From Candidatus Harpocratesius repetitus (GTDB lineage: Archaea > Asgardarchaeota > Lokiarchaeia > Sigyniarchaeales > Promethearchaeaceae), in the NCBI GenBank assembly GCA_021498095.1, contig JAIZWK010000001.1, positions 3,510,001 through 3,542,000 on the forward strand: DNA of 32,000 nt. Reading direction: 5' to 3'. The translations under genes were made by a program, and so were the position numbers. Shown here in pieces: positions 6,977 through 27,957 of the stretch (position 1 is its first letter; every line of letters begins with the position of its first letter). A model generated the notes under the pieces. It saw nothing but the letters and a program-made list of their open reading frames with translations. It was not told the origin of the DNA and searched no databases.

Positions 6977-7414
6977 TTGGTGAAAAATTCATTAGAAACT
7001 CTATTTGTTATTCGTTCAATGATATTGGGAAGCGGAATAATTCTTTTGATATCATTTTTTCTCCCAATAATCAACACATACTCATTATTTGATTTAATAC
7101 GTATTTTCTCAGATATAAGATTAAAATTGCTCTATATGGTTCCTATATTAAATGCTATTTTTAGGATTTTTATTGCTTTATTTCTTCCAAGATTCTTGAA
7201 AAAACGGAAATTATGGCTTTATCTTTTATTAATTTTTGATATTAATATAACTACATTATTTCTAAGCGATATCTTCCAAGAACATAATCCTTACCTTTGG
7301 CAAAATGTTGCAATATATGGATTCATTTTCGCAACTGTCCTATATCTGATTGGATTTTTGAGAATACTCTTATTGGATAATTCTGAAATAAACACGCAAC
7401 CAACTTTCAATTAA
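6977..7414 (+). CDS. Small multi-pass membrane protein
   Basis: 145 aa, about four hydrophobic segments; TTG start uncertain; 19 nt upstream of the next gene. Confidence 0.6.
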   Translation: MVKNSLETLFVIRSMILGSGIILLISFFLPIINTYSLFDLIRIFSDIRLKLLYMVPILNAIFRIFIALFLPRFLKKRKLWLYLLLIFDINITTLFLSDIFQEHNPYLWQNVAIYGFIFATVLYLIGFLRILLLDNSEINTQPTFN

Positions 7415-7433
7415 CCTTAAGGAACGAATAATA

Positions 7434-13492: not shown

Positions 13493-13698
13493 TCCATTCA
13501 ATTTTTTCAATTCTCGCTCATATTTACAATAGAAAAGAGTTAAATCCATAGAATTAACGTAAGTCATGAAAATAGAATGTAAAGACGATCATAGAATCAA
13601 AATAATAATACTATTCTTATATAAATAATTCAAATTTTCAAATTTTGTAAAGAAATAACCGATAAAAGAATATATACAATTGAACAAATATATAATAT

Positions 13699-13756
13699 AA
13701 GAGTTGTAATCGGAAATAAAGACTCTACTTAAGTATTATTTCCAATTGTAATTCTT
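13699..13756 (+). ncRNA. 21-bp RNA hairpin in the rnc leader (candidate RNase III site or small-RNA precursor)
   Basis: 13699-13719 pairs with 13736-13756: 17 Watson-Crick, 3 G·U (on the + transcript), 1 C·A; 16-nt loop. Confidence 0.65.
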
Positions 13757-13828
13757 TACATGCTCAATCCTTAAATTGATCTTGGGTTAAATCTTATTTC
13801 AATTTTAGAGATATGGAGGAACATACAT

Positions 13829-14632
13829 ATGGCTCAAGAAATCTCTCCAGAATTTAAAGAAAAACTATTTAATTGGCTAAAAAAACAAAGAATCATAAAC
13901 ATGGACATAAAAATCTTAATTACAGCCTTCACCCATCCATCATATAAAGGAGTCTTTCCAGAAGTGGAAGATTATGAAAGACTAGAATTCTTAGGAGATG
14001 CGGTTTTGGATCTGGTTTCTGCAGAAGATTTAATCAAACACAGCTCTGCGAATGAAGGAGTATTAACAGAACGTCGAAAACAATTAGTAAATAATGAAAA
14101 TCTTTCCCAAATTTTTGATAGATTAAAGATATCATCTTTTATTCGAACTGCACCTCATTACAAGCCTTCTATTAAGGATAAAGCAAATTTTATTGAAGCC
14201 TTTTTTGGAGCTCTCTTTTTAGAGCACCGCTATGAATATTGCGTTATAGTTTGGCGACAATTTCAAGAAAAAATGGGTAAAATAAAAAAGAAGATTTATC
14301 ATGCTCCATTATCTCCTGAAGATGAACAAAATAAGGAAGAATTGAAACAATTTTATCGCTCAATTGGATTAACCCCAAAAAATGCAAAATCAATGTTACA
14401 AGAACTTAACCAAAAACAAGGATTAGATTTACCCAATTATGAATTAATTGAACATTTTGGACCTGACCATAATCCAACTTTTCGAGTAAAAGTATCAGGT
14501 ATTTTTTTCACAGGACCCCCAAAATGGACAAGATCAGCAATAGGAGAAGGTAAGAGTAAAAAAATTGCCGAAATTAGAGCTGCAGAGAAATTATGTGATC
14601 AAATCTATTTAGATTACATCCCGTTTGATTAA
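13829..14632 (+). CDS. rnc: Ribonuclease III (RNase III domain + dsRBD)
   Basis: ERLEFLGDAVL signature, ANFIEAFFGAL, C-terminal dsRBD (AKSMLQE...GPDH...GEGKSKKIAEIRAA); SD GGAGG at 13815-13819. Confidence 0.96.
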   Translation: MAQEISPEFKEKLFNWLKKQRIINMDIKILITAFTHPSYKGVFPEVEDYERLEFLGDAVLDLVSAEDLIKHSSANEGVLTERRKQLVNNENLSQIFDRLKISSFIRTAPHYKPSIKDKANFIEAFFGALFLEHRYEYCVIVWRQFQEKMGKIKKKIYHAPLSPEDEQNKEELKQFYRSIGLTPKNAKSMLQELNQKQGLDLPNYELIEHFGPDHNPTFRVKVSGIFFTGPPKWTRSAIGEGKSKKIAEIRAAEKLCDQIYLDYIPFD

Positions 14633-14689
14633 GAATAGAAATCAATGAAAGTGAAAAAAATAAAAAGGAAAATTTTTTATTAATATAAT

Positions 14690-14939
14690 AAGATCTCACG
14701 GAAAATGAACCGGAAAGTATCTGAAGGTAAATTGACCGCGAAGACTGTTATATTATTTAATTTATTCATAAGATGGTGCAAAATATAGAAATTTTGCATA
14801 AATTATGGATAAATTAAATATTATCTGTGTTCGCATTCATTGCTAGTATCTCCAGATGTTTTCCAGTTTATTTTACGAGAATTACTCTAGGTCATATTAG
14901 GATTATCTAAGAGAATTCTCTATTTTCCTGTGAGATTTT
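14690..14939 (+). ncRNA. ~250-nt branched structured RNA between rnc and ago
   Basis: Closing stem 14690-14706/14922-14939 (17 bp, 1 bulge); long hairpin ~14702-14874 with 25-, 22- and 8-bp segments; short hairpin 14877-14920; all paired by hand. Confidence 0.7.
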
Positions 14940-14959
14940 GATAAAAAAGTGGTATTGAT

Positions 14960-17413
14960 ATGTCAAAATCTCAAAATAAAGGAAGAAAATCAAATGATGC
15001 ACCTTTAGCATCCCCCTGCTGTCCACAGAAAAAGAAAATAGATCTTGAAATGAATCTTTTTCCTGTGAAGATTTCCAATCTTAAAATCAGTATATATTCA
15101 TGGTTAATTTTTCCAAAAATCGATAATTATAAAGTACAAAGAAATATTCTTGAAATTGCTTTAAGTGAAGAAGCATTATACGAATACATCATTCAAAAAA
15201 ACAAGATCTATCAAAAAAAAAGGCATCCAAATATAAAAAGAGTTGTGCTTTTTCAGAATAAAGAATTTCAAATTGAAATAAATCACCTTGAAACGGTTTA
15301 TCTTTTAGATAATCCAACACTTCAAAACGAAATTTTTGGAAGTATTTGCCAAACTGTGGGATTCGAGCAAATAGGACATAATTACTATTATTCAGCAGAA
15401 AGACAATCCTCACAACTCACACAATCTACAAAAGAATCATTAAAAAGGATATTTCCAGCAATTGAAATAGATGGAGGCAAATACTATTTAAAACAAGGAC
15501 TAACAACTGCGATTCATTCCACCAAGAAAAATTTTTCGATAGATCAAGGAAAAAATGCTATTTCAAATGTTGTTGAATTAGAGCAAACATCAAAACTCAT
15601 TCAAAAAAAGAATTTATTAGAAATAATAATGGATTTGAATAGAAAGGTTAAAGATCATCACAAGATTGAAAATTTACTCATTGGTTCAAGATTTATTACG
15701 CACTACAATAACAGAATATATACAATTCATGGAATTGCTTGGAATAAAGATCCTACTTCTACATTTCAAATTCGCTCAAAGTTGCATCAAAATTTAGAAA
15801 TCACTTTTGAAGAATACTACAAAAAGAATTATCAATTAAAAATTTCAGATCTCCATCAACCTTTAATTATTTATTATCCAATGTCTTCTCAAAAGAGTGC
15901 TACTTCATCAGGATCTCAAGATATACTCTACTTTTTACCAGAGTTTTGTCATCTTTTTGGACTATCAAACCTTGATGCTGATAATTTCAGAATTCGGCAA
16001 GAAATCACCCGAAATACCCAAATGTCACCTTCAGATAGATATAGAAAACTCAAAACATTTGTAGAGAACCAAGATATTCTTGAATTTTTTAAAGTATGGG
16101 GTTTAGATATCGATTCACGGATGATTTCTATGTCTGGAATAAAACTACCAAGTCTAGAGATACAGACTCAAACAGGTGTTTTTCCAATCAATTTTGAACA
16201 ATCAAATTGGCTTTCATTATTAAATCGCTCGCAAGTAATTGATGCTCCTGAATTAAAAAAGTGGATGATATTATATCCAAAAAAATCTATGTCTTTGCAA
16301 GAAGCAAGAAAATTTAGCAATGATTTTCAAAAAATTGCCCAACAAATGGGAATGGTATGTCGACCACCTCAATTACAGGGAGTTTTTGATATGACAAAGT
16401 TTCTGGCAATATTAAAGAAAAATCCTTCTCAACATCATATAAATTCAATCCAATTAATTCTCACAATTACCCCTAATAGGAACAAGACATGTTATCGGAA
16501 AATTAAACAGCTGTGTTATCGAGATCTGGGAATTGCCAATCAAAATGTTGTGCTTAAAAATTTAAGAGATCAAAAAAGAAGAATGCCAATAATCCGAAAT
16601 TTAGTAAGGCAAATTATTTGCAAGGTTCCAAATTTTAATACAAAATATGGCGGGGCTTTATGGAAAATCAAAAATAATTCCATCCCTGACAAAACTTTAA
16701 TTGTTGGAATTGATGTTTGGCATGGCCGTCCCGGAATAGACAAATCTATTGCCGGCATCGTCTTTTCAACTGATAAAGGCTTACATTATACAGCAAATTA
16801 TACAATAACTCCAAGAAAAGGACTGGAATTCATCCACAATTTAGGAAAAATCATAATTACACAACTACAGAATCATTATAACGCAACAAGACAATACTTT
16901 GAAAATATATTAATTTTTCGCGATGGAGTAGGAAACACCCAGTATAACAAGATTTTACAAGAAGAATTCAAGTCTATTCAACAAGAACTAACCAATTCAT
17001 CCATTTTTAGTGAAAAACATCCAAAAATTGCAATAATCTTGGTGAATAAACGAATAAATCGCCGGCTATTTCATAAAAACAAACAAGGACAGATATTGAA
17101 CCCCAAACCCGGAACTTTTATAGAAGATCAATATATAAAATCAGAATTTTCTAATTATTATTTAGTACCCCACTTTTCTCGTTTTGGAACAACCCGACCG
17201 ATTCATATTTCGGTAATTTATAACAATACAAAATACGTTAATTTCCAATTTGTTGAAATTGCAAATATTTTATGTCATTTGAATTACAATTGGGCAGGAA
17301 CAGTTCGCATACCAGCATCTGTGGAATATGCCCATAAAGTTGCCGACTTCATCGGATCAAATCAAATTACATCAATTGCACCAGAATTACTACAAACTCA
17401 ATTCTATTTGTAA
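14960..17413 (+). CDS. ago: Long eukaryote/PIWI-like Argonaute with catalytic DEDH tetrad (probably HrAgo1)
   Basis: PAZ (YNNRIY...TFEEYYKKNY...FLPEFC), MID (YRKIKQ...NQNV...QIICK), PIWI (GIDV D585, E623, RDG D655, YAHK H792, GTTRP, LCHLNYNW); 817 aa. Confidence 0.97.
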   Translation: MSKSQNKGRKSNDAPLASPCCPQKKKIDLEMNLFPVKISNLKISIYSWLIFPKIDNYKVQRNILEIALSEEALYEYIIQKNKIYQKKRHPNIKRVVLFQNKEFQIEINHLETVYLLDNPTLQNEIFGSICQTVGFEQIGHNYYYSAERQSSQLTQSTKESLKRIFPAIEIDGGKYYLKQGLTTAIHSTKKNFSIDQGKNAISNVVELEQTSKLIQKKNLLEIIMDLNRKVKDHHKIENLLIGSRFITHYNNRIYTIHGIAWNKDPTSTFQIRSKLHQNLEITFEEYYKKNYQLKISDLHQPLIIYYPMSSQKSATSSGSQDILYFLPEFCHLFGLSNLDADNFRIRQEITRNTQMSPSDRYRKLKTFVENQDILEFFKVWGLDIDSRMISMSGIKLPSLEIQTQTGVFPINFEQSNWLSLLNRSQVIDAPELKKWMILYPKKSMSLQEARKFSNDFQKIAQQMGMVCRPPQLQGVFDMTKFLAILKKNPSQHHINSIQLILTITPNRNKTCYRKIKQLCYRDLGIANQNVVLKNLRDQKRRMPIIRNLVRQIICKVPNFNTKYGGALWKIKNNSIPDKTLIVGIDVWHGRPGIDKSIAGIVFSTDKGLHYTANYTITPRKGLEFIHNLGKIIITQLQNHYNATRQYFENILIFRDGVGNTQYNKILQEEFKSIQQELTNSSIFSEKHPKIAIILVNKRINRRLFHKNKQGQILNPKPGTFIEDQYIKSEFSNYYLVPHFSRFGTTRPIHISVIYNNTKYVNFQFVEIANILCHLNYNWAGTVRIPASVEYAHKVADFIGSNQITSIAPELLQTQFYL

Positions 17414-17415
17414 AC

Positions 17416-17422
17416 TTTTTTT
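17416..17422 (+). terminator. T7 run just after the ago stop (possible archaeal intrinsic terminator)
   Basis: TTTTTTT two nt after TAA, followed by AT-rich TATA-like DNA before the helicase gene. Confidence 0.3.
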
Positions 17423-17463
17423 AATGTTATAATAAAAATATAAATATGAAAAAATGATTAAAA

Positions 17464-20400
17464 ATGTCTCTGAAAAATTATCTAAACTCGAATAATCTTT
17501 ATTATGCAAGCATTTATGGACAAAAACTAAAAAAATTAACTTATCTTTTTCAAAATATTCGGGATTCTTTTCGCCCTTATATCCATTTTTTGGACAGAGC
17601 GATTGAAGCAGAGAAAGAAAGAGAGATTTCAGCCCTTTTTAAAATAGTCAAAGACGATTTTACGGTTTCTTTTAAACCAATCACAAAAAAGTTGAAGATA
17701 TTATCAGAAGGTTTTCTCTACTGCGAAGTAGAACAAGATTGGGTTCAATTATTAAATTTTGAAGACATTAACAATAATTATGAAGAATTTGATTGGTCTA
17801 ATTGTGAGAATTTTGAAATTAGTTATATGTCCGATGATGGAGCCAAAACAATAAAAATCTCTAAGAAGAATATTATAGTTTTTGAAGACGACGGAAAAAT
17901 AGATTCTATATATCTTAAGTTCCCAATGAATTATAATGATTCTTATGATTTCTATTATAAACGCGTGAGATTGCAGCTTGAAAAAGTCATTGAAGATCTT
18001 GATCTCATTGAAATAACACATCATGAATATGCACTTGATGTAATTGACATTGAGCATGCAGATTCTCAAAATAGTGTTGTAAAAATCCACTATAGCGGAG
18101 TAATCACGCCGGATGATATTGAACATCTAAGAATTAATGGATTACCGCTTCAAAACCCAAGATTCAAACAGATTTCAGATCTTGGGGATGTTTCAAAGAT
18201 ATTCATTGAAAACAATACTGGAAAAAGACAATTACAAATTCTTAGGAAAGATTTTAAAAAGAACTGTGTATTTGTAGAATATTTCCGTGAAAAAGGCGAT
18301 TATTCAATCTTTGGAGAGGATCAAGAACAGAATCGAATAGAAGTGAAAGAACTTAGATTTGAACCTATTAAAAAAATCCAATTTTTAAATAGAGATATTG
18401 AAACGTTATTCTCTCCTCAATTAATTAATGAAAATCGAAGAGGATTAAATGAATACGCCGTAGATATTAAACCATTACCTAAGAACGGTGAAAAGGTTCG
18501 AGCAGATAATGGAAACGAATATGAATGTATTATAAATAAAAAAAAAAAAAGAACTGAATTGAAGCTGAAATTATTAGAAGAAAACGAAGAAGACATGCAT
18601 GAAATCTCAGAAAAATCACCACTAGATTATTTTTTTGAGGATGATGTGAATGAAGTAATGGGTCATAAGATTTTTGAAATAGCAAAAAATAAAAAACTCA
18701 TTTGGACAATTATTAGAAAAAATCGGGAAGAACGAACAATTTCAATCAAGATCAGCAGCAAAAAAAATTATAAAAATGTAAAATATAATCTAGAACGAAT
18801 GAGTGAAAAGAATTATCCTCTTTATCTCAATCGAAATGTTTATCAATTAAAAATGGAAAGAAATTTCATCAATAGGTTAATGAAAAAACCACTAGATGAT
18901 TATCTCCCCCTTCTCCGATTAGGGGAATCTATTAAAGCAACTAAATATGAATGGGATATTTTTAACCCTTTGGATGAAAAAAAAATTGAATGGGAAATCC
19001 TTACGGAAAATGAGCGAGAAGGAACGGAAAAACAAAGACTATTTGTAGAAAAAGCATTGAATACTCCTGATTTTGCTTTCCTCGAAGGTCCTCCTGGATC
19101 TGGAAAAACAACAGCAATTATAGAATTAATTTTTCAATTAATAAAACAGAATAAAAAAATACTCTTAGCAGCTTCAACTCATGTTGCCATTGACAATGTT
19201 CTTGAAAGAATCAAAAAGTACAAAACAGAATGGTTTAATAGGATTTTACCACTCAGGATAGGAGATAGACACAATATTTCTTCAAAAATCGTAGAATTCC
19301 AAATTGATAATCTATTAAAAACGCACAAAAATGGCTTAGATGGATTGAATTCCCTTATTTTAGATGCTTCTAATTTGGTTTGTGGAACAACCATAGGGAT
19401 TTTAAAACATCCTTGGTTTGATCGAAAGAAGAATCGTAATGTAGATCGAAAAGTCTTTCCAATGTTTGATTATTTAATTATAGATGAATCCAGTAAAACT
19501 ACTTTCCAAGATTTTATTATACCTGCATTGTATGCAAAAAGATGGATTTTAGTTGGTGATATTAAGCAATTAGCACCCTATGCTGAAAATGACTATTTGA
19601 AAAGGTATTTTGAAAAATTAACAGATTATAATAATAAAAATATATTTAATTCTCATGCTCAAAAGGCAAATTATTTGATATTTTTGTTACTACGGCGCTT
19701 TTGCGATAAGTCTTCAAAAAAATTTTCAAAAAAATTAAAATTTTCTGAGAGAATCTGTTTTCCTACTGATGAATCTACTATAAAAGCGTTTTTAGAAGAA
19801 ATAAATAAAAGATATGAGCAAGATATATCAAAGGATCAAATTTTATCTCAAAAATTTCCTATTATCACAATAATAGTAAAGGATCGAACTGCTTTAGCAA
19901 ATGTCAATCCAAAAATAATTGAGATCACTGAATCTGATTTAAAAACCAATATTCAAAAATCTCTTCTATTAGTAGCATCAGATCTTATTTTAATTGATTG
20001 GGATATATATAATAGAAAGGAAAATATTATTCCACCTCATTTTTTTGTCTTAAATCATCCTAACTGGAAAAATAGTCAACAAGCTTTTCGATGGAGATAT
20101 ATCATCGACATTAATAAAAACAAAAATAATAATTCAAAACTTTTGATCGAAAATTTTGAGCGTATTAATCAAGATCTGTCTGAAAAGAACTGGGCTTCTG
20201 AGATCTCTTGGCGATTAATTAGATCCTATGAATTAAGAGCACTTCCAGATAATGAAACTTTGAAAAGATATTATAACGATTTATCTTTTCTCCTCCCGCG
20301 AAAAGATGATATCTCTCGTTTTATTATAAATGCTTGGAGTATTTCGCTACCATCAATTTTAGAGTCGTTACAATCTGGCATTGGCGAAAAATATAGAGGA

Positions 20401-21294
20401 CATATTGAAACAATTTTAAAAACGGGATTTCCAAATGAATTATTTTTTCAAAGGCATGTGAAACTAGAATATCAATTTCGTATGCACAGAGACATTTCAA
20501 AATTTCCACGAAAAGAATTCTATGACTCAAAAGCTCTTCAAGATAGCAAATTAACGGATAGAACATGGCAATATTTTAGATATAGAAGAAATCGAACTTA
20601 TGAAAGCCGCTTTACTTGGATAGATCTCTATTGGAAAGCAAAAAGGAATAGAAATGAAAAGGAGGCTAATCGATTAATCAAAGAATTAAAAGAGTTTCTT
20701 AAATGGGCAGAATCAAATCCAATGAATAATGAAGGAGAAAATTGGACTGTTGCCTGTATAACATTTTATAAAGGGCAAGAAAGACTCATTCGTGAAAAAC
20801 TTAGACAATTAACTGGTCTTACTAACAGAACGAATATCTTTTACTATGGAAATGTGGATATTCTCCTATATACTGTAGATAAAATTCAAGGAAGGGAAGC
20901 GGATATTATATTTTTATCTTTGGTTCGCAATGCACGATTTTATAATGGCAAATATCAAGGGGGAAATTTAGGATTTATGGATAATCCAAACCGTTTAAAC
21001 GTTGCCTTAACACGAGCCAAATATCAACTTGTTATATTAGGCCATATCCTAAATTTTCAAGATCAAAACAACAGTATCCATTTGAAGAATTTAACGAAAG
21101 CAGTTACAATAGAAAAACGTGAAACTCCAAACCGTCGACAAAATAGAGAAAATTGGATTAATAGCAAATCAAATCAAAGAAAAAATCAACAATTCATACC
21201 ATTTTCTGAAAAATCCCGTCGAAAACGGAAAAATTCTAAGAAAAATCATTCAAAAATTAATAAAAATACACGTAATCAATGGAGAAGAAGATAA
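17464..21294 (+). CDS. SF1B helicase of the Upf1/DNA2/NAM7 (MOV10-like) family
   Basis: GPPGSGKTT, ASTHVAIDNVLER, IIDESS, LVGDIKQL, QFRMH, TVDKIQGREAD, RLNVALTRAK; ~500-aa unknown N-terminus and basic C-terminal tail. Confidence 0.95.
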   Translation: MSLKNYLNSNNLYYASIYGQKLKKLTYLFQNIRDSFRPYIHFLDRAIEAEKEREISALFKIVKDDFTVSFKPITKKLKILSEGFLYCEVEQDWVQLLNFEDINNNYEEFDWSNCENFEISYMSDDGAKTIKISKKNIIVFEDDGKIDSIYLKFPMNYNDSYDFYYKRVRLQLEKVIEDLDLIEITHHEYALDVIDIEHADSQNSVVKIHYSGVITPDDIEHLRINGLPLQNPRFKQISDLGDVSKIFIENNTGKRQLQILRKDFKKNCVFVEYFREKGDYSIFGEDQEQNRIEVKELRFEPIKKIQFLNRDIETLFSPQLINENRRGLNEYAVDIKPLPKNGEKVRADNGNEYECIINKKKKRTELKLKLLEENEEDMHEISEKSPLDYFFEDDVNEVMGHKIFEIAKNKKLIWTIIRKNREERTISIKISSKKNYKNVKYNLERMSEKNYPLYLNRNVYQLKMERNFINRLMKKPLDDYLPLLRLGESIKATKYEWDIFNPLDEKKIEWEILTENEREGTEKQRLFVEKALNTPDFAFLEGPPGSGKTTAIIELIFQLIKQNKKILLAASTHVAIDNVLERIKKYKTEWFNRILPLRIGDRHNISSKIVEFQIDNLLKTHKNGLDGLNSLILDASNLVCGTTIGILKHPWFDRKKNRNVDRKVFPMFDYLIIDESSKTTFQDFIIPALYAKRWILVGDIKQLAPYAENDYLKRYFEKLTDYNNKNIFNSHAQKANYLIFLLLRRFCDKSSKKFSKKLKFSERICFPTDESTIKAFLEEINKRYEQDISKDQILSQKFPIITIIVKDRTALANVNPKIIEITESDLKTNIQKSLLLVASDLILIDWDIYNRKENIIPPHFFVLNHPNWKNSQQAFRWRYIIDINKNKNNNSKLLIENFERINQDLSEKNWASEISWRLIRSYELRALPDNETLKRYYNDLSFLLPRKDDISRFIINAWSISLPSILESLQSGIGEKYRGHIETILKTGFPNELFFQRHVKLEYQFRMHRDISKFPRKEFYDSKALQDSKLTDRTWQYFRYRRNRTYESRFTWIDLYWKAKRNRNEKEANRLIKELKEFLKWAESNPMNNEGENWTVACITFYKGQERLIREKLRQLTGLTNRTNIFYYGNVDILLYTVDKIQGREADIIFLSLVRNARFYNGKYQGGNLGFMDNPNRLNVALTRAKYQLVILGHILNFQDQNNSIHLKNLTKAVTIEKRETPNRRQNRENWINSKSNQRKNQQFIPFSEKSRRKRKNSKKNHSKINKNTRNQWRRR

Positions 21295-22422
21295 ATGAAA
21301 ATAATTTTAAAACGAAAAGTATTAATTCAAGTATTTGAAATAATTGCAGAAATGCAGTTTGAAGAAACAAAACCTGCTTATCAAAAAATATTATCAATTG
21401 GGAAAACAGACAAAATTACGGCAGATTCAATTTTATTCTTTTTTTCTGAATATAATGAGAATTTGCAAAAGATTCTTGCAAATAATATTATTCGCTTCTT
21501 TAAAGTTGAAAAATTTATTGACGATTCAGGGAATCTTACAGTAATTGGGAATAATATTGTTGAATTAGGTAAAGTACCCATTAAAGAAAAAGGTAAATAT
21601 CTGATCTGGTGTTTGGAAGATCCACTTTGGGGCAAATGTTGCATTCATTTCACACGGATGGATTATGATTATAATTCTCATAAAGTTGAATATGGATTTC
21701 CTTTTAGCAATATCGAAAACCGTTCTTTTATTGACTTTATTCGAAATAACCATTTCGTTATTTCAAGGTTTATTTCAAAGGATGAAAAAATTCCTTTTAA
21801 AATACAAAGCAATTATAATTCAAAGCTTAATTTATTATGGGAAATTGATTTCAATCTTGAAGATAAAAAAGTTGAGAAATCTTTTATCAAATTGAATGGA
21901 AAAATCTTAGAAGAAGTCAAAAAAAGTAAAAAAGAAAAAGAAATTGAACCACAAGAAAAAGAATTTAATATTATTAATATTAATTCTTTGATTTCAACAA
22001 TTTTCAAAAATGCTTCATTAGAATGGGATAATTCAATTATTGGAGTGAAAATAGGATTAAATGAGATAGTAAACGAGAACTCCTATGATTCTTTTAGAAT
22101 GGATTTTCAATTCAACAATCAAACTATTTTAGATTTTGGAGATTTTTTAGATATCTCATGTGAAAACGTCCCCATCATCCCAAAAGATGAAAATGTAGCA
22201 AAAGAGTGGCTTATTTATAATCTATCAAAGATTTGCAAGAATAAATTCCTGTGGTCAGATGAATATTCAAAACATCTTTCAGAATTTCAATCAAAACGCG
22301 AAATTTTGCATTGTTTTCCAAGATTGAATATTGATCAAGAAGAATTAGCACAAATTTATAAAAATCGTAATCAAATGGAGAGATTCTGGCATCTACAAGC
22401 ACCTCTCGATTTAACATTTTAA
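21295..22422 (+). CDS. Hypothetical protein, translationally coupled to the helicase
   Basis: 375-aa ORF; TAAATG junction with the helicase stop. Confidence 0.85.
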   Translation: MKIILKRKVLIQVFEIIAEMQFEETKPAYQKILSIGKTDKITADSILFFFSEYNENLQKILANNIIRFFKVEKFIDDSGNLTVIGNNIVELGKVPIKEKGKYLIWCLEDPLWGKCCIHFTRMDYDYNSHKVEYGFPFSNIENRSFIDFIRNNHFVISRFISKDEKIPFKIQSNYNSKLNLLWEIDFNLEDKKVEKSFIKLNGKILEEVKKSKKEKEIEPQEKEFNIININSLISTIFKNASLEWDNSIIGVKIGLNEIVNENSYDSFRMDFQFNNQTILDFGDFLDISCENVPIIPKDENVAKEWLIYNLSKICKNKFLWSDEYSKHLSEFQSKREILHCFPRLNIDQEELAQIYKNRNQMERFWHLQAPLDLTF

Positions 22423-22435
22423 GGAGAAGATAGTA

Positions 22436-24724
22436 ATGAGTGAAAAAAACGATTATATTAAACCCGTACAACTTTCTTCATCAAAGTCCTATATGAATGA
22501 AATCTATGAAGATTTTTGGATGGAACTGCATTCAGAAATTGACAGTTATTCAGTAAAGCTATCAAATTGCTCGATCCTTCTACATACATTTGATAGATTT
22601 CGTCAAAAAATCCGCGAAGCAAAAAAATATGTCATCATTTTAACAGATCGTTTAGATTCGGAATATTTAATCGATGATTTGCTTGAAGCTTCAGAAAATG
22701 GGGCAAGGATTTATATTTTGATAGAAGAGCCGACAGAAATCCCAAATGAAAAAAAAAAGAATTTTATCCATAATATTAAGAAACTAATCAATAAAGCATT
22801 AATTAGGATAATCCCAAGAACTCAAGTTCATTTTTTATTAATTGATCCTGATGATAAAGATAATTCTTTTGGGTTTATTACAAATTCTAGACTTCTTTTT
22901 AACTCAGATTTATTTGATCTGGGTAAATTTTTATTACAATTATCTAGAACTCAAACTATAGAAGTATTTGATTTATTCAAATTGATATTTTGGACATATT
23001 CTGAGTTTCAAATTATACACGAAGAAGATATTGAATTTCCAAAGAAAATAGAACCATTATATAACCGTAAATCTAATTTAAAGTGGAAATACCTTTTTTA
23101 TAAATTAAATAAAGATGAGGATTTTATTAGTCAGAACCTTGCTGAAAACATTCAAAAAGCAAATAGAGAAATTGAAGGTATTTTCGAACATTTTGATCTT
23201 GATAATCAAATTATAGATGCCTTCAACTCAAAAATCGATTCTATTGATATTCACTTTAACACAACTTTTTATGGATGGAGACCAAATCATTTTTCGCAAT
23301 CTTCTCGATTGAATGTTATAACTCCGATCAAAAATGATCTTTCAATTCCGATTTTAAACGGAATTTGCATAGATAAAAAGGTAGGTATCTTATTTATATC
23401 TGATATTCCAATGGATGAAAGGGAAGACTACTTCTTACAAATCGCACTTAAATTAACTGCACCTCAAATGAAGCAATTTCAAGAATTTCTTTCATACATT
23501 AAAAAAATATCAAATTACCGCTATTTTTACCAGGAAAAACTCGAAAATATTAATCATAATATAATCAAAATTGATGATAATGGGGAGATTTTACCATTTG
23601 AGTTAGATGATAACTATAAAAAACATATTGATGACATCAACTGTAAAATAATTGATGAGTTTTTAAAAAAGAAAGAATTGAAGGAACGTGATTTCTCAAA
23701 ATATCAAGAACGGTATAAGAAAAAGATTGACTTTGAATGGAGGGTAATACCTCCTAGATTACCTGATAAATCAGAAAAAGACGATTTATATCGGCAATGG
23801 GATCAATTTTATCAATCATATGAAACATATATCACAGATCTTAAAGGATTGATTCAATATCTGATCAATTATTATAATAATAATAAGTTGATACTTATCC
23901 AACAAATTATCACTGGATATCGTCAAAAAATTGAAGAATTTTCTGATGAATTAAAAGAATTTAGTGAAATAGACATTGATCAAATTGAAATTGAAAAGTT
24001 AAGAGAAAAAATTAATCGTTTGCATGAAATTCACCAAAAACTAGTAGATCAATATAGAGATATTTTAACCAAATCAGATAATTGTAAAAGAATCGATGAA
24101 TTGAAAGAAAAAATTGAAATAATAAAACATGATTACACCGAAATTGAAAACAAATTAAAAAAATATATAGAAAAAATAAAAAAGGAAAAAGAAAACTTGA
24201 ATAAGAATCAAAATAGCTTAAATTCTTTAAAGGAAGCTGCAAAGAAATTAACGAAAAAGAAAAAAAAGGATCTTTATAATGATATTGATATTCAAAAGGG
24301 AATTATTAAGAAAATCAAAAATGAAATTGAAGATCTAGAAAAAGAACGAAATAAATTAGAAAAAAGAAAGATGCATTTTGAAAATTCAATCAAAAATAAT
24401 CAAAAAGAAATTGAAAGAATTAAAAGAACAATTGAAAATGAAGGTTTTAAAGATAAGAAAGAAATAACAACACATTCCTTTGATGAATTTATGAGAAAAG
24501 GGAGAAAACAAAACAAAAAAATAAAAAAAGAAATTGAAATGAATTTACCTGCTATCCACAACAATGTAACCGTACCTTCGGAAAAGATTCCTGAAGTTGG
24601 CATTTTATATCGGTCCAAAAAAGAGCGTTTTATTGTCATACAGAAATATTCAGAAATTGCTAAAGCAAAGGAAATTGAAAAAAAATATAAATGTAAAATC
24701 GTAGTAAACGGAGGAGGGAAATAG
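22436..24724 (+). CDS. Protein with two degenerate PLD-like repeats and a long C-terminal coiled coil
   Basis: IREAKKYVII...LIDDLLEASENGARIYIL PLD-like N-terminus; QVHFLLID (22823-22846) and ILNGICID (23351-23374) at HxKxxxxD positions; E/K-rich heptads in the last third; SD AAGGAG. Confidence 0.75.
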   Translation: MSEKNDYIKPVQLSSSKSYMNEIYEDFWMELHSEIDSYSVKLSNCSILLHTFDRFRQKIREAKKYVIILTDRLDSEYLIDDLLEASENGARIYILIEEPTEIPNEKKKNFIHNIKKLINKALIRIIPRTQVHFLLIDPDDKDNSFGFITNSRLLFNSDLFDLGKFLLQLSRTQTIEVFDLFKLIFWTYSEFQIIHEEDIEFPKKIEPLYNRKSNLKWKYLFYKLNKDEDFISQNLAENIQKANREIEGIFEHFDLDNQIIDAFNSKIDSIDIHFNTTFYGWRPNHFSQSSRLNVITPIKNDLSIPILNGICIDKKVGILFISDIPMDEREDYFLQIALKLTAPQMKQFQEFLSYIKKISNYRYFYQEKLENINHNIIKIDDNGEILPFELDDNYKKHIDDINCKIIDEFLKKKELKERDFSKYQERYKKKIDFEWRVIPPRLPDKSEKDDLYRQWDQFYQSYETYITDLKGLIQYLINYYNNNKLILIQQIITGYRQKIEEFSDELKEFSEIDIDQIEIEKLREKINRLHEIHQKLVDQYRDILTKSDNCKRIDELKEKIEIIKHDYTEIENKLKKYIEKIKKEKENLNKNQNSLNSLKEAAKKLTKKKKKDLYNDIDIQKGIIKKIKNEIEDLEKERNKLEKRKMHFENSIKNNQKEIERIKRTIENEGFKDKKEITTHSFDEFMRKGRKQNKKIKKEIEMNLPAIHNNVTVPSEKIPEVGILYRSKKERFIVIQKYSEIAKAKEIEKKYKCKIVVNGGGK

Positions 24725-25336
24725 ATTATAAAAAATCCATACGAAACAGAAGTTATAGGAGATTTTCTAAATATTAATCATATCTTAGACAGATCAACCT
24801 CAAACGGTCCAGGTCTAAGAACAGTCATTTGGCTTCAAGGGTGCCTTAAGCATTGTGAAGGATGTAATAATAGAAATATGTGGCCTTTTAAAATAAAACA
24901 AAAGATTGGAGTTAAAGAATTAATAGATCGAATTAGAAAGAATAAAGAAACGTTTGAAATCGAAGGAATTACATTGAGTGGAGGGGAACCACTTCTTCAA
25001 TGGAGAATCTTGATTCCTTTTTTGCAGGAAATAAAAAAAATGGAACTTTCAGTAATATGTTTTTCAGGGTATACATGGGAAGAAATAAATTGTGCTAAAT
25101 TTAAACTTGTACTCCCACTAATTGATATTTTGGTTTCAGGTCCATTTATGCAAAAAGAAAAAGGAAACTTACCTTTAAGAGGCTCAAATAATCAAGAAAT
25201 TCATTTTTTAACTAATAGATATGATAACTCCGATATTAAAGAGCAAAGTACTGAAATCTTGATCGATACTGATGGTAAAATTACAATCACAGGATTTCCA
25301 TCAAAAGATATTTTAGATTTTTTTTCTAATTATTAA
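24725..25336 (+). CDS. Radical SAM protein, NrdG/activase-like; real N-terminus lies upstream of the tracked ATG (24878)
   Basis: In-frame NGPGLRTVIWLQGCLKHCEGCNN (CxxxCxxC at 24842-24865) precedes the ATG; GITLSGGEPLLQ and LIDILVSGPF follow. Confidence 0.85.
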   Translation: MIKNPYETEVIGDFLNINHILDRSTSNGPGLRTVIWLQGCLKHCEGCNNRNMWPFKIKQKIGVKELIDRIRKNKETFEIEGITLSGGEPLLQWRILIPFLQEIKKMELSVICFSGYTWEEINCAKFKLVLPLIDILVSGPFMQKEKGNLPLRGSNNQEIHFLTNRYDNSDIKEQSTEILIDTDGKITITGFPSKDILDFFSNY

Positions 25337-25361
25337 AAATAACAATAAATAAATAAATAAT

Positions 25362-26969
25362 ATGGAAATGAAAATGGTAGAAAAAGAATTGAACGAAATT
25401 CGCACATTAATCAGAGCAGGTGCAACAGTAATTCAAGTTGTTTCATACGAACAACAGCGTGTTCAAGGTTTTGTCGATGCAATTGCCAAAGAATTAGGTT
25501 TAAATTGGTTTGATTGGAATTATGTGAAAGGTTTGCAAAAAAGCAATGATGGCGTTTTAGAAGCTTTTAAGCATAATTTAACTGATCCAATCGACTTATT
25601 GGAAGAAATTCTAACTGACGAATCTGAAAATGGATTGTATATTTGCCACGATTTTCATCCATTTATGAATGATAATCCTAAAATAATTCGGTTATTAAGG
25701 GAAATAATAACAACGCCATTTGAACACAAGAAAGCATTAATCTTATGCCAACCAATAAAAATAATTCCAAACGAATTACTAAAGGAAATGCCTATAGTTG
25801 AGGTGGAATTACCATCAAGTGAAATTTTAGAAGTGATTGCAGATGTTGTAAAGGAAAAATTCAATCTCGATAATCAATCCTTTGATAAATCAGAAGGGTT
25901 AATCAATGCAGCTCTTGGATTAACCACAATGGAAGCACAGTTAGCATTTTCAAAAGCAATTGTCGAAACTAACCAATTAAATGAAGAATCAATTAATTAT
26001 ATAATTAAAGAAAAGGAAAACATTATTAAAAAGAAAGGTACTTTAGAATATTTCCATCCAAATGACGATTTTGAAAGCATTGGTGGATTAAATGTATTAA
26101 AAGAATGGTTACGAAAACGTGGGAAGGCTTTTAAAAAAGGGGCACAAGAATATGGGTTGGATAAACCTAGAGGTGTATTATTATTAGGAATTCCTGGTTG
26201 TGGTAAAAGTTTAAGCGCAAAAGCAATAGCAAATGTTTGGAATTTTCCCTTACTTAGATTTGATTTGGGTAAAGTGTTTTCAGGGATCGTAGGTGAATCA
26301 GAACAAAACATCAGAAATGCACTAGATATTGCTAAGGCATTAGCACCTTGTGTATTATGGATTGATGAAATCGAGAAAGGCTTGTCAGGTGTGAAGAGTT
26401 CTAATGAAACAGATTCAGGAGTAAGTGCAAGAATATTTGGTACATTTTTAACTTGGATGCAAGAAAAGAAAGAACCTGTTTTTGTGGTTGCCACAGCCAA
26501 CGATATTAGTCAATTACCACCAGAATTATTGAGAAAAGGTCGATTTGATGAAATTTTCTTCGTAGATCTTCCCACTTTATCCGAACGCGAAGAAATATTC
26601 AGAATCCATATTAAAAAGAAAAAGCGAAATCCTGAAAATTTTAATATTCAATATTTTGCAAAAATAACTGTAGGATTTACAGGCTCAGAAATTGAGGAAA
26701 TTGTAAAAGAAGCTCTTTTCCGGGGTTTTGATGAAAACCGTCAGATCCAAGATAAAGACTTCATAGGAGCAATTAAAGATACAATTCCCTTATCAGTGAC
26801 TATGGGTACTGATCTCGGTGATTTACGTAAATGGGCGAAATACCATGCAAAACTCGCAAGTAAAGATGAATTTAATGAAGATTTAAGCGAGATAACCCCA
26901 AAAGAAGATATACCAAAATTAAAGCAAGCTAGTATTAATCCCTTCATAAAACGGAATGAGACGAAATAA
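25362..26969 (+). CDS. Ycf46-like AAA+ ATPase (degenerate N-terminal AAA + active C-terminal AAA)
   Basis: Walker A GIPGCGKS, Walker B WIDEIEK, SRH TAN...LPPELLRKGRFD, C-terminal PLSVTM...LRKWA. Confidence 0.92.
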   Translation: MEMKMVEKELNEIRTLIRAGATVIQVVSYEQQRVQGFVDAIAKELGLNWFDWNYVKGLQKSNDGVLEAFKHNLTDPIDLLEEILTDESENGLYICHDFHPFMNDNPKIIRLLREIITTPFEHKKALILCQPIKIIPNELLKEMPIVEVELPSSEILEVIADVVKEKFNLDNQSFDKSEGLINAALGLTTMEAQLAFSKAIVETNQLNEESINYIIKEKENIIKKKGTLEYFHPNDDFESIGGLNVLKEWLRKRGKAFKKGAQEYGLDKPRGVLLLGIPGCGKSLSAKAIANVWNFPLLRFDLGKVFSGIVGESEQNIRNALDIAKALAPCVLWIDEIEKGLSGVKSSNETDSGVSARIFGTFLTWMQEKKEPVFVVATANDISQLPPELLRKGRFDEIFFVDLPTLSEREEIFRIHIKKKKRNPENFNIQYFAKITVGFTGSEIEEIVKEALFRGFDENRQIQDKDFIGAIKDTIPLSVTMGTDLGDLRKWAKYHAKLASKDEFNEDLSEITPKEDIPKLKQASINPFIKRNETK

Positions 26970-26970
26970 A

Positions 26971-27168
26971 ATGAGTGATGAAAAAATTATTATTATGATT
27001 GATGAAGATGGAAAAATTCAAGCAGATGCAATCGGATTTAAGGGCAATATCTGCCTTAAGGAATTAGAAAAATTACTGGAAGGACTTCCTGAAATTGAAA
27101 AATTGGATAAAAAACCAGATTTTTATCAAAAAAATGTGAAATACAAACACAAAACTATACTAAAATGA
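26971..27168 (+). CDS. DUF2997-like small protein
   Basis: IIIMIDEDGKIQADAIGFKGNICLKELEKLLE; ATG directly after the AAA stop; usual neighbour of Ycf46-like ATPases. Confidence 0.8.
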   Translation: MSDEKIIIMIDEDGKIQADAIGFKGNICLKELEKLLEGLPEIEKLDKKPDFYQKNVKYKHKTILK

Positions 27169-27181
27169 TGGTGAGAATGAT

Positions 27182-27757
27182 ATGAGTTCCTTAATAACCC
27201 TTCGACTGCCGTTTTTTGATTTTGAGTGTCTAGAAAAAGCGATTGAGAAATCTGGACTTAAAATCATTCAAAAAACGAAAGATATCTTGCTTTCTAATGG
27301 AATTTTATTTCAAAATACTAATATTGGATATATTGCCCAAGTAAATAATGTTCAAAAAGAAATAATAAATGCAATTCAAACAGAATATGAAAAATTCTAT
27401 CAAGAAAAAGTTAAAGCTTTAAGAGAAGCACAGAGAAAACTAGAATATCTCGAAGATCAATTGAAGATGAAAATTAAAAAAATCAACAAGTTGAAACAAA
27501 ATTTTAGTGAGAAGAATCAAGAGAAAATTCAAAAAACAGTGTTAGAAATTGAATCGCTCCAATCTATTAAACAAATTCAAGAAGAAATAAAACGTAAGGA
27601 GCAAATGAAATTAAAGGAACTAGAAGAATCCAATAAAAAAAAGATAACACATATTGTCGAAAAAATCCAATCTCAAGCTCAGAAAAGAAAATATCGCGTT
27701 AAAATTTCTAAGATTGGAGACAAAACACAGTTAATATTGGTAAAACAGAGGTATTGA
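27182..27757 (+). CDS. DUF1257 (Ycf35)-like protein with inserted coiled coil
   Basis: N-terminal MSSLITL...DFECLEKAIEKSG and C-terminal IQSQAQKRKYRVK...TQLILVKQRY pattern; context with DUF2997 and AAA. Confidence 0.6.
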   Translation: MSSLITLRLPFFDFECLEKAIEKSGLKIIQKTKDILLSNGILFQNTNIGYIAQVNNVQKEIINAIQTEYEKFYQEKVKALREAQRKLEYLEDQLKMKIKKINKLKQNFSEKNQEKIQKTVLEIESLQSIKQIQEEIKRKEQMKLKELEESNKKKITHIVEKIQSQAQKRKYRVKISKIGDKTQLILVKQRY

Positions 27758-27813
27758 AATAAAAAGAAAGAAGATATAATGGATCTCTTCCATTGTTTTT
27801 TTCCTTTTTCAAT
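27753..27813 (+). terminator. Imperfect hairpin with U-tracts closing the helicase-AAA operon
   Basis: ATAATGGA/TCCATTGT (27776-27796) and ATTGAAA/TTTCAAT (27753-27813) arms; low-complexity middle. Confidence 0.3.
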
Positions 27814-27957
27814 AAAAAAATCCTAATGAAACAATTCAGAACTAAGCATTTGTGCCAAAATTTTATTACTAAGCGGAGTTTTCGTTTCTCTGTAGAATCA
27901 AATCTGTTTTATTGAGAATTTCAATGAAGACAGTTCAGACTCGTTTGTTGTGATATT

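What the first reader, a model, noticed from the sequence alone, without database searches (positions are those of the whole stretch)
13829..17413. RNase III adjacent to a catalytically intact PIWI-like Argonaute in an Asgard archaeon (proto-RNAi locus)
Seen in sequence: rnc and ago are co-oriented, 327 nt apart. The Ago has eukaryote-like PAZ/MID motifs and a full D585/E623/D655/H792 tetrad. Established: most archaea lack RNase III, and most prokaryotic Agos are DNA-targeting and not linked to RNase III. From memory, an 817-aa Asgard Ago with D585/E623 (HrAgo1) was shown to perform RNA-guided RNA cleavage, so the Ago itself is probably described. The open question is whether the neighbouring RNase III makes its guides.
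Basis: partly seen in the sequence, partly recalled or inferred. Interest (0 to 1): 0.75.

Follow-up and report, generated by a model that had tools for sequence, protein, structure and literature searches.

The report
RNase III–Argonaute cassette in Asgard archaea
This is the already published HrAgo1 locus of the Asgard archaeon 'Ca. Harpocratesius repetitus', but comparison with other genomes shows that the RNase III gene beside this eukaryote-like Argonaute is a recurring partner and not a chance neighbour, which makes a pre-eukaryotic 'dicing plus slicing' pathway directly testable.

Summary
The Ago is identical to HrAgo1 (PDB 8r3z). Bastiaanssen et al. 2024 (PMC11217426) already reported the rnc and helicase neighbours and proposed testing them for guide production, so the locus and the hypothesis are known.

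New results here:
1. The adjacency is not unique. rnc sits directly upstream of 3 of the 4 HrAgo1-type Agos found in 1.84 billion proteins, and upstream of a second, related Asgard Ago clade (3 of 3 assessable loci). It is co-oriented beside none of 18 other Asgard Piwi genes.
2. The genome has three RNase III genes. The Ago-linked one is a paralogue inside a 14.4-kb island that is absent from a sister species, which keeps only the core copy.
3. RNase III is common in Asgard archaea (278 of 400 genomes).
4. The 'Dicer-like helicase' is an SF1 Upf1/MkoA-like helicase. It belongs to a seven-gene AAA+/radical-SAM module that also occurs alone in bacteria, and it accompanies only 1 of the 4 HrAgo1-type Agos.
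5. The rnc-ago spacer is one long RNA duplex (z -9.2).

Functional coupling is likely (about 0.7). Guide production is plausible (about 0.45) but untested.

The parts
13493..27957 (+). 14.4-kb accessory island holding rnc, HrAgo1 and the seven-gene module. It is absent from the congeneric genome G136.
   Evidence: tblastn of the window's proteins against G136:C80. The orthologue of gene 12833-13492 (60% identical) is followed after about 43 nt by the orthologue of gene 27958-29427 (78% identical). No flanking repeats, integrase or tRNA were found.
13829..14632 (+). HrRnc: class-1 (bacterial-type) RNase III, with one RNase III domain plus one dsRBD, 267 aa. It is the Ago-linked paralogue.
   Evidence: Pfam Ribonuclease_3 and dsrm. 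The ERLEFLGD signature and catalytic E123 are kept, with N120 in place of the usual Asp, as in Drosha RIIIDa. It is 67% identical to a second genomic copy, and that second copy is the orthologue of the sister species' only rnc.
14633..14959 (+). rnc-ago spacer that folds into one long, mostly double-stranded RNA. The core hairpin is at 14735-14840.
   Evidence: Whole spacer: MFE -95.6 kcal/mol, z -9.2, 0 of 100 shuffles as good. Core hairpin: -36.9, z -7.3. The minus strand reaches only -26.7. It is the most stable 110-nt window of the 32 kb on either strand. It is unique in the genome and matches no Rfam family.
14960..17413 (+). HrAgo1: PIWI-clade long Argonaute with a DEDH tetrad. Published work shows RNA-guided RNA slicing.
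   Evidence: 100% identical to PDB 8r3z_A. Biochemistry in PMC11217426. Sister to eukaryotic PIWIs in my tree, support 100/100.
17464..21294 (+). SF1B Upf1-like helicase (1276 aa, MkoA-like), the first gene of the seven-gene module.
   Evidence: Pfam AAA_11/AAA_12. Best PDB matches are DNA2, Upf1, IGHMBP2 and Sen1. PADLOC MkoA 2e-80.
21295..22422 (+). Module gene P0006 (375 aa), no known family.
   Evidence: No Pfam, PADLOC or NCBIfam hit. Homologues sit at the same position in L060, L062, L065 and L066.
22436..24724 (+). Module gene P0007 (762 aa): a PLD-like N-terminal domain without the HKD motif, followed by a long coiled coil.
   Evidence: Pfam PLDc_2 at 25.5 bits, below the cut-off of 27. 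All ten best atlas feature hits are PLDc_2. In seven family members the His is variable and the Lys is absent.
24725..25336 (+). Module gene: small NrdG-like radical-SAM protein (Fer4_12). The CxxxCxxC motif lies upstream of the first ATG (24878).
   Evidence: Read from 24725, Pfam Fer4_12 scores 7.5e-35. Homologues align from their residue ~42 onward.
25362..26969 (+). Module gene: classical AAA+ ATPase (535 aa).
   Evidence: Pfam AAA plus AAA_lid_3. PADLOC IetA-like 5e-25. 54-63% identical to the module AAA proteins of L060, L062 and L065.
26971..27165 (+). Module gene: small DUF2997 protein (65 aa).
   Evidence: tblastn with the 66-aa genes of L060, L062 and L065. Pfam DUF2997 1.7e-07, above its cut-off.
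27182..27757 (+). Module gene: 191-aa protein, the last gene of the island.
   Evidence: Homologous to the terminal ~176-195-aa genes of L060, L062 and L066. No Pfam hit.

Best explanation
rnc and hrAgo1 form a two-gene RNA-silencing cassette carried on an accessory island. The most likely mechanism has four steps. (a) The class-1 RNase III, working as a homodimer, cuts long double-stranded RNA into short duplexes with 5'-phosphates. Substrates would be sense/antisense transcripts of mobile elements or viruses, or long hairpins such as the one encoded in its own spacer. (b) One strand is loaded into HrAgo1. (c) HrAgo1 slices complementary RNA. (d) The neighbouring seven-gene helicase/AAA+/radical-SAM module is a separate, mobile, defence-type module that repeatedly sits beside such cassettes and may assist or back them up. 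Only step (c), together with HrAgo1's preference for 5'-phosphorylated 15-25-nt RNA guides, has been shown, and that is in the literature. Here I show that the genes are linked non-randomly and that the linked rnc is a dedicated paralogue. Steps (a), (b) and (d) are inferred.
For: Published work shows that HrAgo1 binds 15-25-nt 5'-P RNAs with a 5'-U bias and slices RNA. Those are the end chemistry that RNase III produces (established knowledge). Linkage: rnc lies directly upstream of the Ago in G134 (Ago 31% identical) and in metagenome locus L008 (rnc 58% identical), and the outer flanks differ in each case. A second Ago clade shows the same pairing, often with overlapping reading frames: L060/61, G045 (overlaps of 35 and 4 nt) and G307. 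Counting loci, 6 of 7 assessable loci of these two types have the pairing, against 0 of 18 other Asgard Piwi loci, Fisher p = 4e-5 (related genomes are not independent). Both rnc-linked types lie in the super-clade that contains eukaryotic PIWIs (split support 98/97). The window's rnc is one of three RNase III genes. The L002 copy groups with the sister species' sole rnc (99/95), while the Ago-linked copy branches outside that pair (97/92) and lies in an island the sister species lacks. G134 has duplicated its linked rnc so that copies flank the Ago (100/98). The rncs linked to the L060-type Agos form their own lineage, distinct from their hosts' other rncs. All linked rncs keep the RNase III signature and the catalytic Glu. 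The rnc-ago spacers of the window, G134 and L008 each hold the most stable fold of their locus.
Against: No RNA data exist for this organism, so neither the products of the enzyme nor the native guides are known. Class-1 RNase III has no PAZ/platform ruler and typically gives heterogeneous short products (established knowledge). One HrAgo1-type locus (L010) has no adjacent rnc. HrAgo1 acquires guides in E. coli without HrRnc, although E. coli has its own RNase III. HrRnc carries N120 at a metal-binding Asp position; Drosha RIIIDa has the same residue, and so does the core paralogue. An RNase III-domain gene also pairs with a second copy of the AAA+/rSAM/helicase core elsewhere in this genome where there is no Ago, so the rnc might instead serve the module. 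The Ago-linked rncs of the HrAgo1 type do not form an exclusive clade.
Confidence: 0.45

Rival explanations
1. RNase III controls Ago expression and does not make guides. It would cleave the long structured leader between rnc and ago, as E. coli RNase III cleaves its own operon leader. That would separate the two messages and set the stability or translation of the ago mRNA. This rival can coexist with guide production.
For: The 327-nt spacer is almost entirely duplex (z -9.2), while control spacers have z from +1.2 to -2.0. The fold is about 10 kcal/mol stronger on the sense strand. The leaders of G134 (z -6.8) and L010 (z -7.0) are also structured, as is a local hairpin in L008 (z -3.3). L010 has a structured leader but no adjacent rnc, which suits a cis-regulatory element acted on by any cellular RNase III.
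Against: In the second Ago clade, rnc and ago overlap with no spacer at all, so a leader hairpin cannot explain the linkage there. A purely regulatory role could be filled by the core rnc copy, so it does not explain a dedicated paralogue carried in the island. No transcript ends are known.
Confidence: 0.2
2. The RNase III is an effector or processing enzyme of the helicase/AAA+/radical-SAM module, or a parallel dsRNA-degrading defence. It shares an island with the Ago but hands nothing over to it.
For: rnc, Ago and the module occur together in the window, L060/61 and G045. In addition, L062 has an rnc fragment beside the module and G043 has an Ago beside it. A second module-like locus in this genome pairs an RNase III-domain protein with rSAM, AAA+ and an SF1 helicase and has no Ago. 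The module sits among restriction-modification and Abi genes in bacteria.
Against: rnc-Ago pairs exist without the module in G134, L008 and G307. The module exists without rnc or Ago in Bacillus and Terrisporobacter. In Asgard the helicase was found in only 4 of 400 genomes. rnc is always placed next to the Ago, often overlapping it, and not next to the module genes.
Confidence: 0.15
3. The adjacency has no function. A housekeeping rRNA-processing rnc happens to lie next to an Ago, and the arrangement was inherited by relatives.
For: RNase III is common and mostly single-copy in Asgard genomes. The rncs linked to HrAgo1-type Agos fall inside the host family's own rnc clade. In G134 the only two RNase III matches in the genome (85% complete) are the ones flanking the Ago, so that copy may also do housekeeping work.
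Against: In this genome the linked copy is not the core copy and lies in an island missing from the sister species. The outer flanks differ in every locus while rnc-Ago stays together. A distantly related rnc (27-28% identical) pairs with a different Ago clade, with overlapping frames. None of 18 other Asgard Piwi loci has a co-oriented adjacent rnc.
Confidence: 0.07

Closest known systems
The HrAgo1 locus as published (Bastiaanssen et al., Nat Commun 2024, PMC11217426)
   Same: It is the same DNA. The paper reports rnc (RNase III + dsRBD) and a helicase flanking hrAgo1 and proposes testing them for guide production.
   Different: The paper calls the helicase DExD/H and Dicer-like, knew only one truncated HrAgo1 homologue, and states that the association had not been seen with other pAgos. 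Here the helicase is SF1 Upf1/MkoA-like. Three further full-length HrAgo1-type Agos were found. The rnc pairing is shown to recur, also with a second Ago clade, and the island, the paralogy, the seven-gene module and the structured spacer are described.
Eukaryotic RNAi: Dicer/Drosha plus AGO/PIWI
   Same: An RNase III-family enzyme is paired with a PAZ-MID-PIWI slicer that uses 5'-P RNA guides to cut RNA. HrAgo1 is sister to eukaryotic PIWIs.
   Different: HrRnc has one RNase III domain and one dsRBD, with no second RNase III domain, no PAZ/platform ruler and no fused SF2 helicase. The two proteins are encoded as an operon-like pair on a mobile island. Product size and hand-over to the Ago are unknown.
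Budding-yeast Dcr1 (Kluyveromyces polysporus; PDB 3rv0)
   Same: It is a Dicer with a single RNase III domain and dsRBDs and no PAZ or helicase, and it still makes siRNAs for an Argonaute (established knowledge). It appears among HrRnc's PDB matches (E 1.8e-07). It shows that a ruler-less class-1-like enzyme can feed an Ago.
   Different: Yeast Dcr1 has an N-terminal dimerisation domain and a second dsRBD. HrRnc is closer per domain to bacterial Rnc (single-stretch scores of 57-66 bits to Campylobacter and Aquifex Rnc, against 25-35 bits per Drosha or DCL4 domain).
Type II CRISPR-Cas9 tracrRNA:pre-crRNA processing by host RNase III
   Same: This is the one established prokaryotic case in which a class-1 RNase III matures the guide RNA of an RNA-guided nuclease (established knowledge; listed in the table of PMC5303251).
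   Different: There the RNase III is the unlinked housekeeping enzyme and the duplex comes from a dedicated tracrRNA. Here a dedicated paralogue is encoded beside the effector, and the effector is an Argonaute.
Mokosh type I defence (MkoA helicase + MkoB PLD nuclease) and its proposed piRNA counterparts MOV10L1/Armitage + PLD6/Zucchini
   Same: The helicase scores 269 bits (2e-80) on PADLOC MkoA. A PLD-like protein follows two genes later, and a PIWI-clade Ago is next door. The Mokosh-piRNA domain homology is published.
   Different: The PLD-like family lacks the HKD catalytic motif and does not hit MkoB models. The system has seven genes, including AAA+, radical-SAM and DUF2997. The module accompanies only 1 of 4 HrAgo1-type Agos and occurs alone in bacteria.

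Membership tests
HrAgo1 / PIWI-clade Argonaute | Sequence identity to the characterised protein | tested here: met
   100% identical over residues 1-817 to PDB 8r3z_A.
HrAgo1 / PIWI-clade Argonaute | PAZ and PIWI domains with a DEDH catalytic tetrad | tested here: met
   Pfam PAZ 3e-20 and Piwi 1e-62. D585, E623, D655 and H792 are conserved.
HrAgo1 / PIWI-clade Argonaute | Branches with eukaryotic PIWIs and not with other prokaryotic Agos | tested here: met
   The four HrAgo1-type proteins plus six eukaryotic PIWIs group at 100/100 in a 28-sequence tree. No eukaryotic AGO-clade or bacterial pAgo sequences were included.
Class-1 (bacterial-type) RNase III, Rnc | Single RNase III domain with the ERLEFLGD signature, followed by one dsRBD | tested here: met
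   Pfam Ribonuclease_3 at residues 50-133 and dsrm at 186-258. The signature is seen in the alignment.
Class-1 (bacterial-type) RNase III, Rnc | Four acidic catalytic residues (E41, D45, D114, E117 in E. coli numbering) | tested here: inconclusive
   Three of the four are kept. The D114 equivalent is N120 (KANFIEA). The aligned Drosha RIIIDa motif has the same residue (ANCFEA), and so do the core paralogue and L008. Activity was not measured.
Class-1 (bacterial-type) RNase III, Rnc | Reaches the NCBIfam TIGR02191 equivalog cut-off | tested here: not met
   141.7 bits against a cut-off of 166.25. It is a divergent member of the family and not a bacterial equivalog.
Dicer / Drosha (class 2-4 RNase III) | Two tandem RNase III domains forming an intramolecular dimer | tested here: not met
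   One domain only.
Dicer / Drosha (class 2-4 RNase III) | PAZ/platform ruler and a fused SF2 helicase | tested here: not met
   Neither is present in the 267-aa protein. The neighbouring helicase is a separate SF1B protein.
Dicer-type helicase (SF2, RIG-I/ERCC4-like), as implied by the published 'DExD/H' label | SF2 helicase core | tested here: not met
   Pfam AAA_11/AAA_12. Best PDB matches are DNA2, Upf1, IGHMBP2 and Sen1. NCBIfam IGHMBP2 family 4e-45.
Mokosh type I | MkoA-type helicase | tested here: met
   PADLOC PDLC03920 MkoA, 2.1e-80, 269 bits.
Mokosh type I | MkoB PLD nuclease with an HKD motif | tested here: not met
   No PADLOC MkoB hit. PLDc_2 scores below its cut-off. The His is variable and the Lys absent in seven family members.
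Mokosh type I | Two-gene architecture | tested here: not met
   A seven-gene module is conserved in archaea and bacteria.
piRNA-biogenesis trio (PIWI + Armitage/MOV10L1 + Zucchini) | The helicase and PLD nuclease are conserved partners of the PIWI-type Ago | tested here: not met
   The helicase module is next to only 1 of 4 HrAgo1-type Agos. The PLD-like protein lacks HKD.

The most novel reading that the evidence does not exclude
An RNase III-Argonaute gene pair is an ancient, mobile RNA-silencing cassette of Asgard archaea. It was already present in the Ago lineage that gave rise to eukaryotic PIWI/AGO. On this reading, the 'dicing enzyme feeds slicer' partnership, and the supply of RNase III itself, predate eukaryogenesis and were not assembled from a bacterial endosymbiont's RNase III. 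The long hairpin encoded between the two genes would be a primitive, self-encoded guide precursor.
Probability: 0.3. Interest if true: 0.9.

Novelty: already known. Interest (0 to 1): 0.6.

Why it matters
How eukaryotic RNA interference was assembled is a long-standing open question. The standard account takes the Argonaute from archaea and the RNase III of Dicer from bacteria, on the grounds that RNase III is 'rare in archaea' (PMC5303251). Two results here bear on that. RNase III is common in Asgard archaea. And the Argonautes closest to eukaryotic PIWIs, together with their nearest Asgard relatives, repeatedly carry their own RNase III gene. If that enzyme supplies guides, a minimal two-protein RNAi pathway existed before eukaryotes, and it can be rebuilt from two small genes and a spacer. 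The work also corrects the record on the 'Dicer-like helicase', which is a Upf1/MkoA-like helicase belonging to an undescribed seven-gene module.

Tried and rejected
1. **Complex prediction.** The HrAgo1 (184-817) + HrRnc job returned no verdict, score 0.00. It counts neither for nor against binding.
2. **Expression data.** No RNA holder is listed for this stretch, only the one DNA run that probably gave the assembly.
3. **Word-index searches.** The protein search with HrAgo1 found only itself and one rotifer PIWI. The same search with P0006 found nothing. The exhaustive profile search was needed.
4. **Island borders.** No convincing direct or inverted repeats at the borders, only AT-rich chance matches.
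5. **Spacer hairpin as a repeated element.** Rejected: it is unique in the genome. It matches no Rfam family.
6. **'Catalytically dead RNase III' because of N120.** Rejected as a conclusion: the aligned Drosha RIIIDa motif has the same residue, and the core paralogue has it too.
7. **'PIWI + Armitage + Zucchini trio'.** Considered, then set aside. The PLD-like family lacks HKD and the helicase is not conserved with HrAgo1-type Agos.
8. **Deep phylogeny of RNase III.** A tree against bacterial Rnc, Dicer and Drosha could not be built because no named reference sequences of those families could be obtained. Only per-domain PDB scores are given.
9. **Covariation test of the spacer structure.** Impossible: the sister species lacks the island, and the other spacers cannot be aligned to it. 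The L008 and L010 leaders share a ~30-nt block, but two sequences are too few.
10. **L062.** My first reading, 'module without rnc', was wrong. The fragment at the contig edge is an rnc N-terminus.


Full report
**1. What is in the window**

The two reading frames are exactly as described. ORF 13829-14632 (+, 267 aa) carries Pfam Ribonuclease_3 (3e-19) and dsrm (4e-13). ORF 14960-17413 (+, 817 aa) carries PAZ (3e-20) and Piwi (1e-62). They are co-oriented, with a 327-nt spacer between them. The Argonaute is identical, residue for residue, to PDB 8r3z chain A, 'HrAgo1'. The window therefore comes from 'Ca. Harpocratesius repetitus' FW102. It lies at 3,510,001-3,542,000 of a single 4.36-Mb contig. 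D585, E623, D655 and H792 are conserved in the closest relative and across 20 HrAgo1-type and eukaryotic PIWI sequences.

**2. What is already published**

Bastiaanssen et al. 2024 (PMC11217426) describe this operon. They note the rnc gene (RNase III + dsRBD) and a 'DExD/H helicase' flanking hrAgo1. They say these domains resemble those of Dicer and that the association had not been seen with other pAgos. They recommend testing both genes for guide generation. They knew only one truncated HrAgo1 homologue. They also showed that HrAgo1 co-purifies with 15-25-nt 5'-phosphorylated RNAs with a 5'-U bias and slices RNA. A 2025 Mol Cell paper repeats the description. I found no paper that tests the RNase III. 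The observation and the hypothesis are therefore known. The rest of this report is about what can be added.

**3. RNase III is not rare in this phylum, and this genome has three copies**

PF00636 matches 278 of 400 Asgard species genomes, and 72 of the 90 high-quality ones. It is usually one gene of about 250 aa. This contrasts with the standard statement that RNase III is rare in archaea (PMC5303251).

The window's genome has three RNase III genes:
- the Ago-linked copy;
- a 67%-identical full-length copy at 58.5 kb;
- a Mini-III-like, domain-only copy at 2.55 Mb.

In a 33-sequence tree, the 58.5-kb copy groups with the only rnc of the congeneric genome G136 (99/95). The Ago-linked copy branches just outside that pair (97/92). 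G136 and a second congener, G135, gave no HrAgo1 match.

**4. The cassette lies on an accessory island**

In G136, the orthologue of window gene 12833-13492 is followed after about 43 nt by the orthologue of gene 27958-29427. The 14.4 kb in between are therefore present in this species and absent from its sister. That stretch holds rnc, hrAgo1 and seven further genes. I found no border repeats, so how it was gained or lost is unknown.

**5. The rnc-Ago pairing recurs**

An exhaustive profile search of 1.84 billion proteins found only four proteins above the plateau of eukaryotic PIWIs: HrAgo1, the G134 protein, P0009 and P0010. The plateau members carry PIWI names from animals and Anaeramoeba.

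| Locus | Arrangement |
|---|---|
| G134 (same family, another genus; Ago 31% identical) | rnc+dsRBD, 760-nt spacer, Ago, then 63 nt later a second, domain-only RNase III that is a local duplicate of the first (100/98) |
| L008 (metagenome) | rnc (58% identical), 1.4-kb spacer, Ago, then a DNA methyltransferase |
| L010 (metagenome) | trp operon, Ago, no adjacent rnc |

The outer flanks differ in every case.

A census of all 25 Piwi loci in 400 Asgard genomes was scanned with profiles over flanks of up to about 7 kb where the contig allowed. It revealed a second Ago type with an rnc immediately upstream, often overlapping: L060/61, G045 and G307. Two further members are cut off by contig ends. 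Nine other long Agos and eight short ones have no rnc nearby. One (G185) has a divergently oriented rnc.

Counted as loci, that is 6 of 7 against 0 of 18, Fisher p = 4e-5. Related genomes are not independent, so this figure only illustrates the contrast.

In the Ago tree, the HrAgo1 type is sister to eukaryotic PIWIs (100/100). The clade holding the second rnc-linked type is the next Asgard group, separated from all other Asgard Agos at 98/97. The rncs of the second type form their own lineage (L060 + G307 at 100/99, G045 joining at 87/76). That lineage mirrors the Ago branching and is distinct from the other rnc copies in the same genomes. Whether rnc was recruited once or twice is not resolved.

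**6. The helicase is not Dicer-like and belongs to a separate module**

The 1276-aa protein is SF1B:
- Pfam AAA_11/AAA_12;
- best PDB matches DNA2, Upf1, IGHMBP2 and Sen1;
- PADLOC MkoA 2e-80.

Its relatives number in the thousands and are mostly bacterial. Their neighbourhoods show a conserved seven-gene module:
- AAA+ ATPase;
- the helicase;
- a ~370-550-aa protein;
- a ~610-850-aa PLD-like/coiled-coil protein;
- a small DUF2997 protein;
- a small NrdG-like radical-SAM protein;
- a ~190-aa protein.

The window has all seven, in a rearranged order. The module stands alone in Bacillus and Terrisporobacter, next to restriction-modification and Abi genes.

In Asgard it is rare: the helicase matched in 4 of 400 genomes. 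Yet wherever the flank can be read, an rnc and/or a long Ago is beside it:
- the window;
- L060/61;
- G045, a nine-gene operon with overlapping frames;
- L062, with an rnc fragment at the contig edge;
- G043, with an Ago cut by the contig end.

A second, related locus in this same genome pairs a Mini-III-like RNase III with rSAM, AAA+ and an SF1 helicase, and it has no Ago.

The PLD-like family lacks the HKD motif and hits no MkoB model. The system is therefore not Mokosh, and the attractive 'PIWI + Armitage + Zucchini' parallel (homology published) fails on a defining feature. The module accompanies only 1 of the 4 HrAgo1-type Agos, so it is not their obligate partner.

**7. The spacer**

The 327 nt between rnc and ago fold into one long, mostly double-stranded structure (-95.6 kcal/mol, z -9.2). 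The 106-nt core hairpin (14735-14840) has the following properties:
- z -7.3;
- about 10 kcal/mol more stable on the sense strand;
- the most stable 110-nt window of the whole 32 kb on either strand;
- unique in the genome;
- no Rfam match.

Seven control spacers have z from +1.2 to -2.0. In G134 and L008 the top-ranked fold of the entire locus also lies in the rnc-ago spacer on the Ago strand. The L010 leader is structured too (z -7.0). In the second Ago type the genes overlap and there is no spacer.

A duplex of this length is a textbook RNase III substrate (established knowledge). Whether it is a processing site, a regulator or a guide precursor cannot be decided without RNA data, and none is on record.

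**8. Reading**

The linkage is real and non-random, and in this genome it involves a dedicated paralogue. I put functional coupling of rnc and Ago at about 0.7.

Guide production by RNase III is the most economical mechanism, for three reasons. The end chemistry matches. Budding-yeast Dcr1 shows that a ruler-less enzyme can feed an Ago. Cas9 systems show that prokaryotic RNase III can mature guides. But it is untested, and I put it at about 0.45.

Three rivals remain: leader cleavage to control Ago expression, a role with the helicase module instead, and chance adjacency. The last is now unlikely. A complex prediction gave no verdict.

**9. Verdict**

The locus and the hypothesis are already known. 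Together these turn the published suggestion into a well-defined experiment.

Noticed in passing
window 17464-27757; also L060, L062, L065, L066, L067: A conserved seven-gene module found in both bacteria and Asgard archaea: AAA+ ATPase, SF1 MkoA-like helicase, a ~370-aa protein, a PLD-like/coiled-coil protein without HKD, DUF2997, an NrdG-like radical-SAM protein, and a ~190-aa protein. It matches no named defence system as a whole. In bacteria it sits among restriction-modification and Abi genes.
   Followed up: partly
window 24725-24878: The CxxxCxxC motif of the radical-SAM gene (CLKHCEGC) is encoded upstream of the first ATG/GTG/TTG (24878), in frame directly after the stop codon of the preceding gene. 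This points to a non-canonical start (ATT/ATA at 24725-24730) or some other way of reading through.
   Followed up: partly
G000:C1 ~2,540,000-2,550,665 (loci L003, L114), minus strand: A second module-like operon in the same genome: Mini-III-like RNase III domain protein (228 aa, motif LALIGDA), a 191-aa protein, rSAM, AAA+, about 3 kb of further genes, and a large SF1 helicase. There is no Argonaute.
   Followed up: partly
phylum-wide: RNase III (PF00636) is present in 278 of 400 Asgard species genomes but nearly absent from some families (0/19, 0/12-like tallies). This revises the textbook 'rare in archaea' and bears on where Dicer's RNase III domains came from.
   Followed up: partly
window 906-6976: A second stretch of about 6 kb is absent from the congeneric genome G136. 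There, the orthologue of gene 348-905 lies next to that of gene 6977-7414. This is another indel in the same neighbourhood.
   Followed up: no
L007 (G134:C109) 7701-8168 and 6804-7460, minus strand: The HrAgo1-type Ago of G134 is followed by a 155-aa RNase III domain without a dsRBD, a fast-evolving duplicate of the upstream rnc. After that comes a 218-aa protein with no family match.
   Followed up: partly
L008 5430-5470 and L010 9790-9830: The leaders of the two sister Agos share a ~30-nt conserved block (GG..GG.T.GGT.CGTTTCCACTT...TTTTT) directly after hairpins that are otherwise unrelated in sequence.
   Followed up: no
window 13683-13792: A smaller hairpin (about -19.7 kcal/mol) lies upstream of the rnc start codon. 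The upstream region as a whole is not unusually structured (z -0.3).
   Followed up: no
L066 (G079:C297): In this Asgard copy of the module, the helicase is split into two reading frames and the PLD-like gene into three. The cause is either decay or assembly errors.
   Followed up: no
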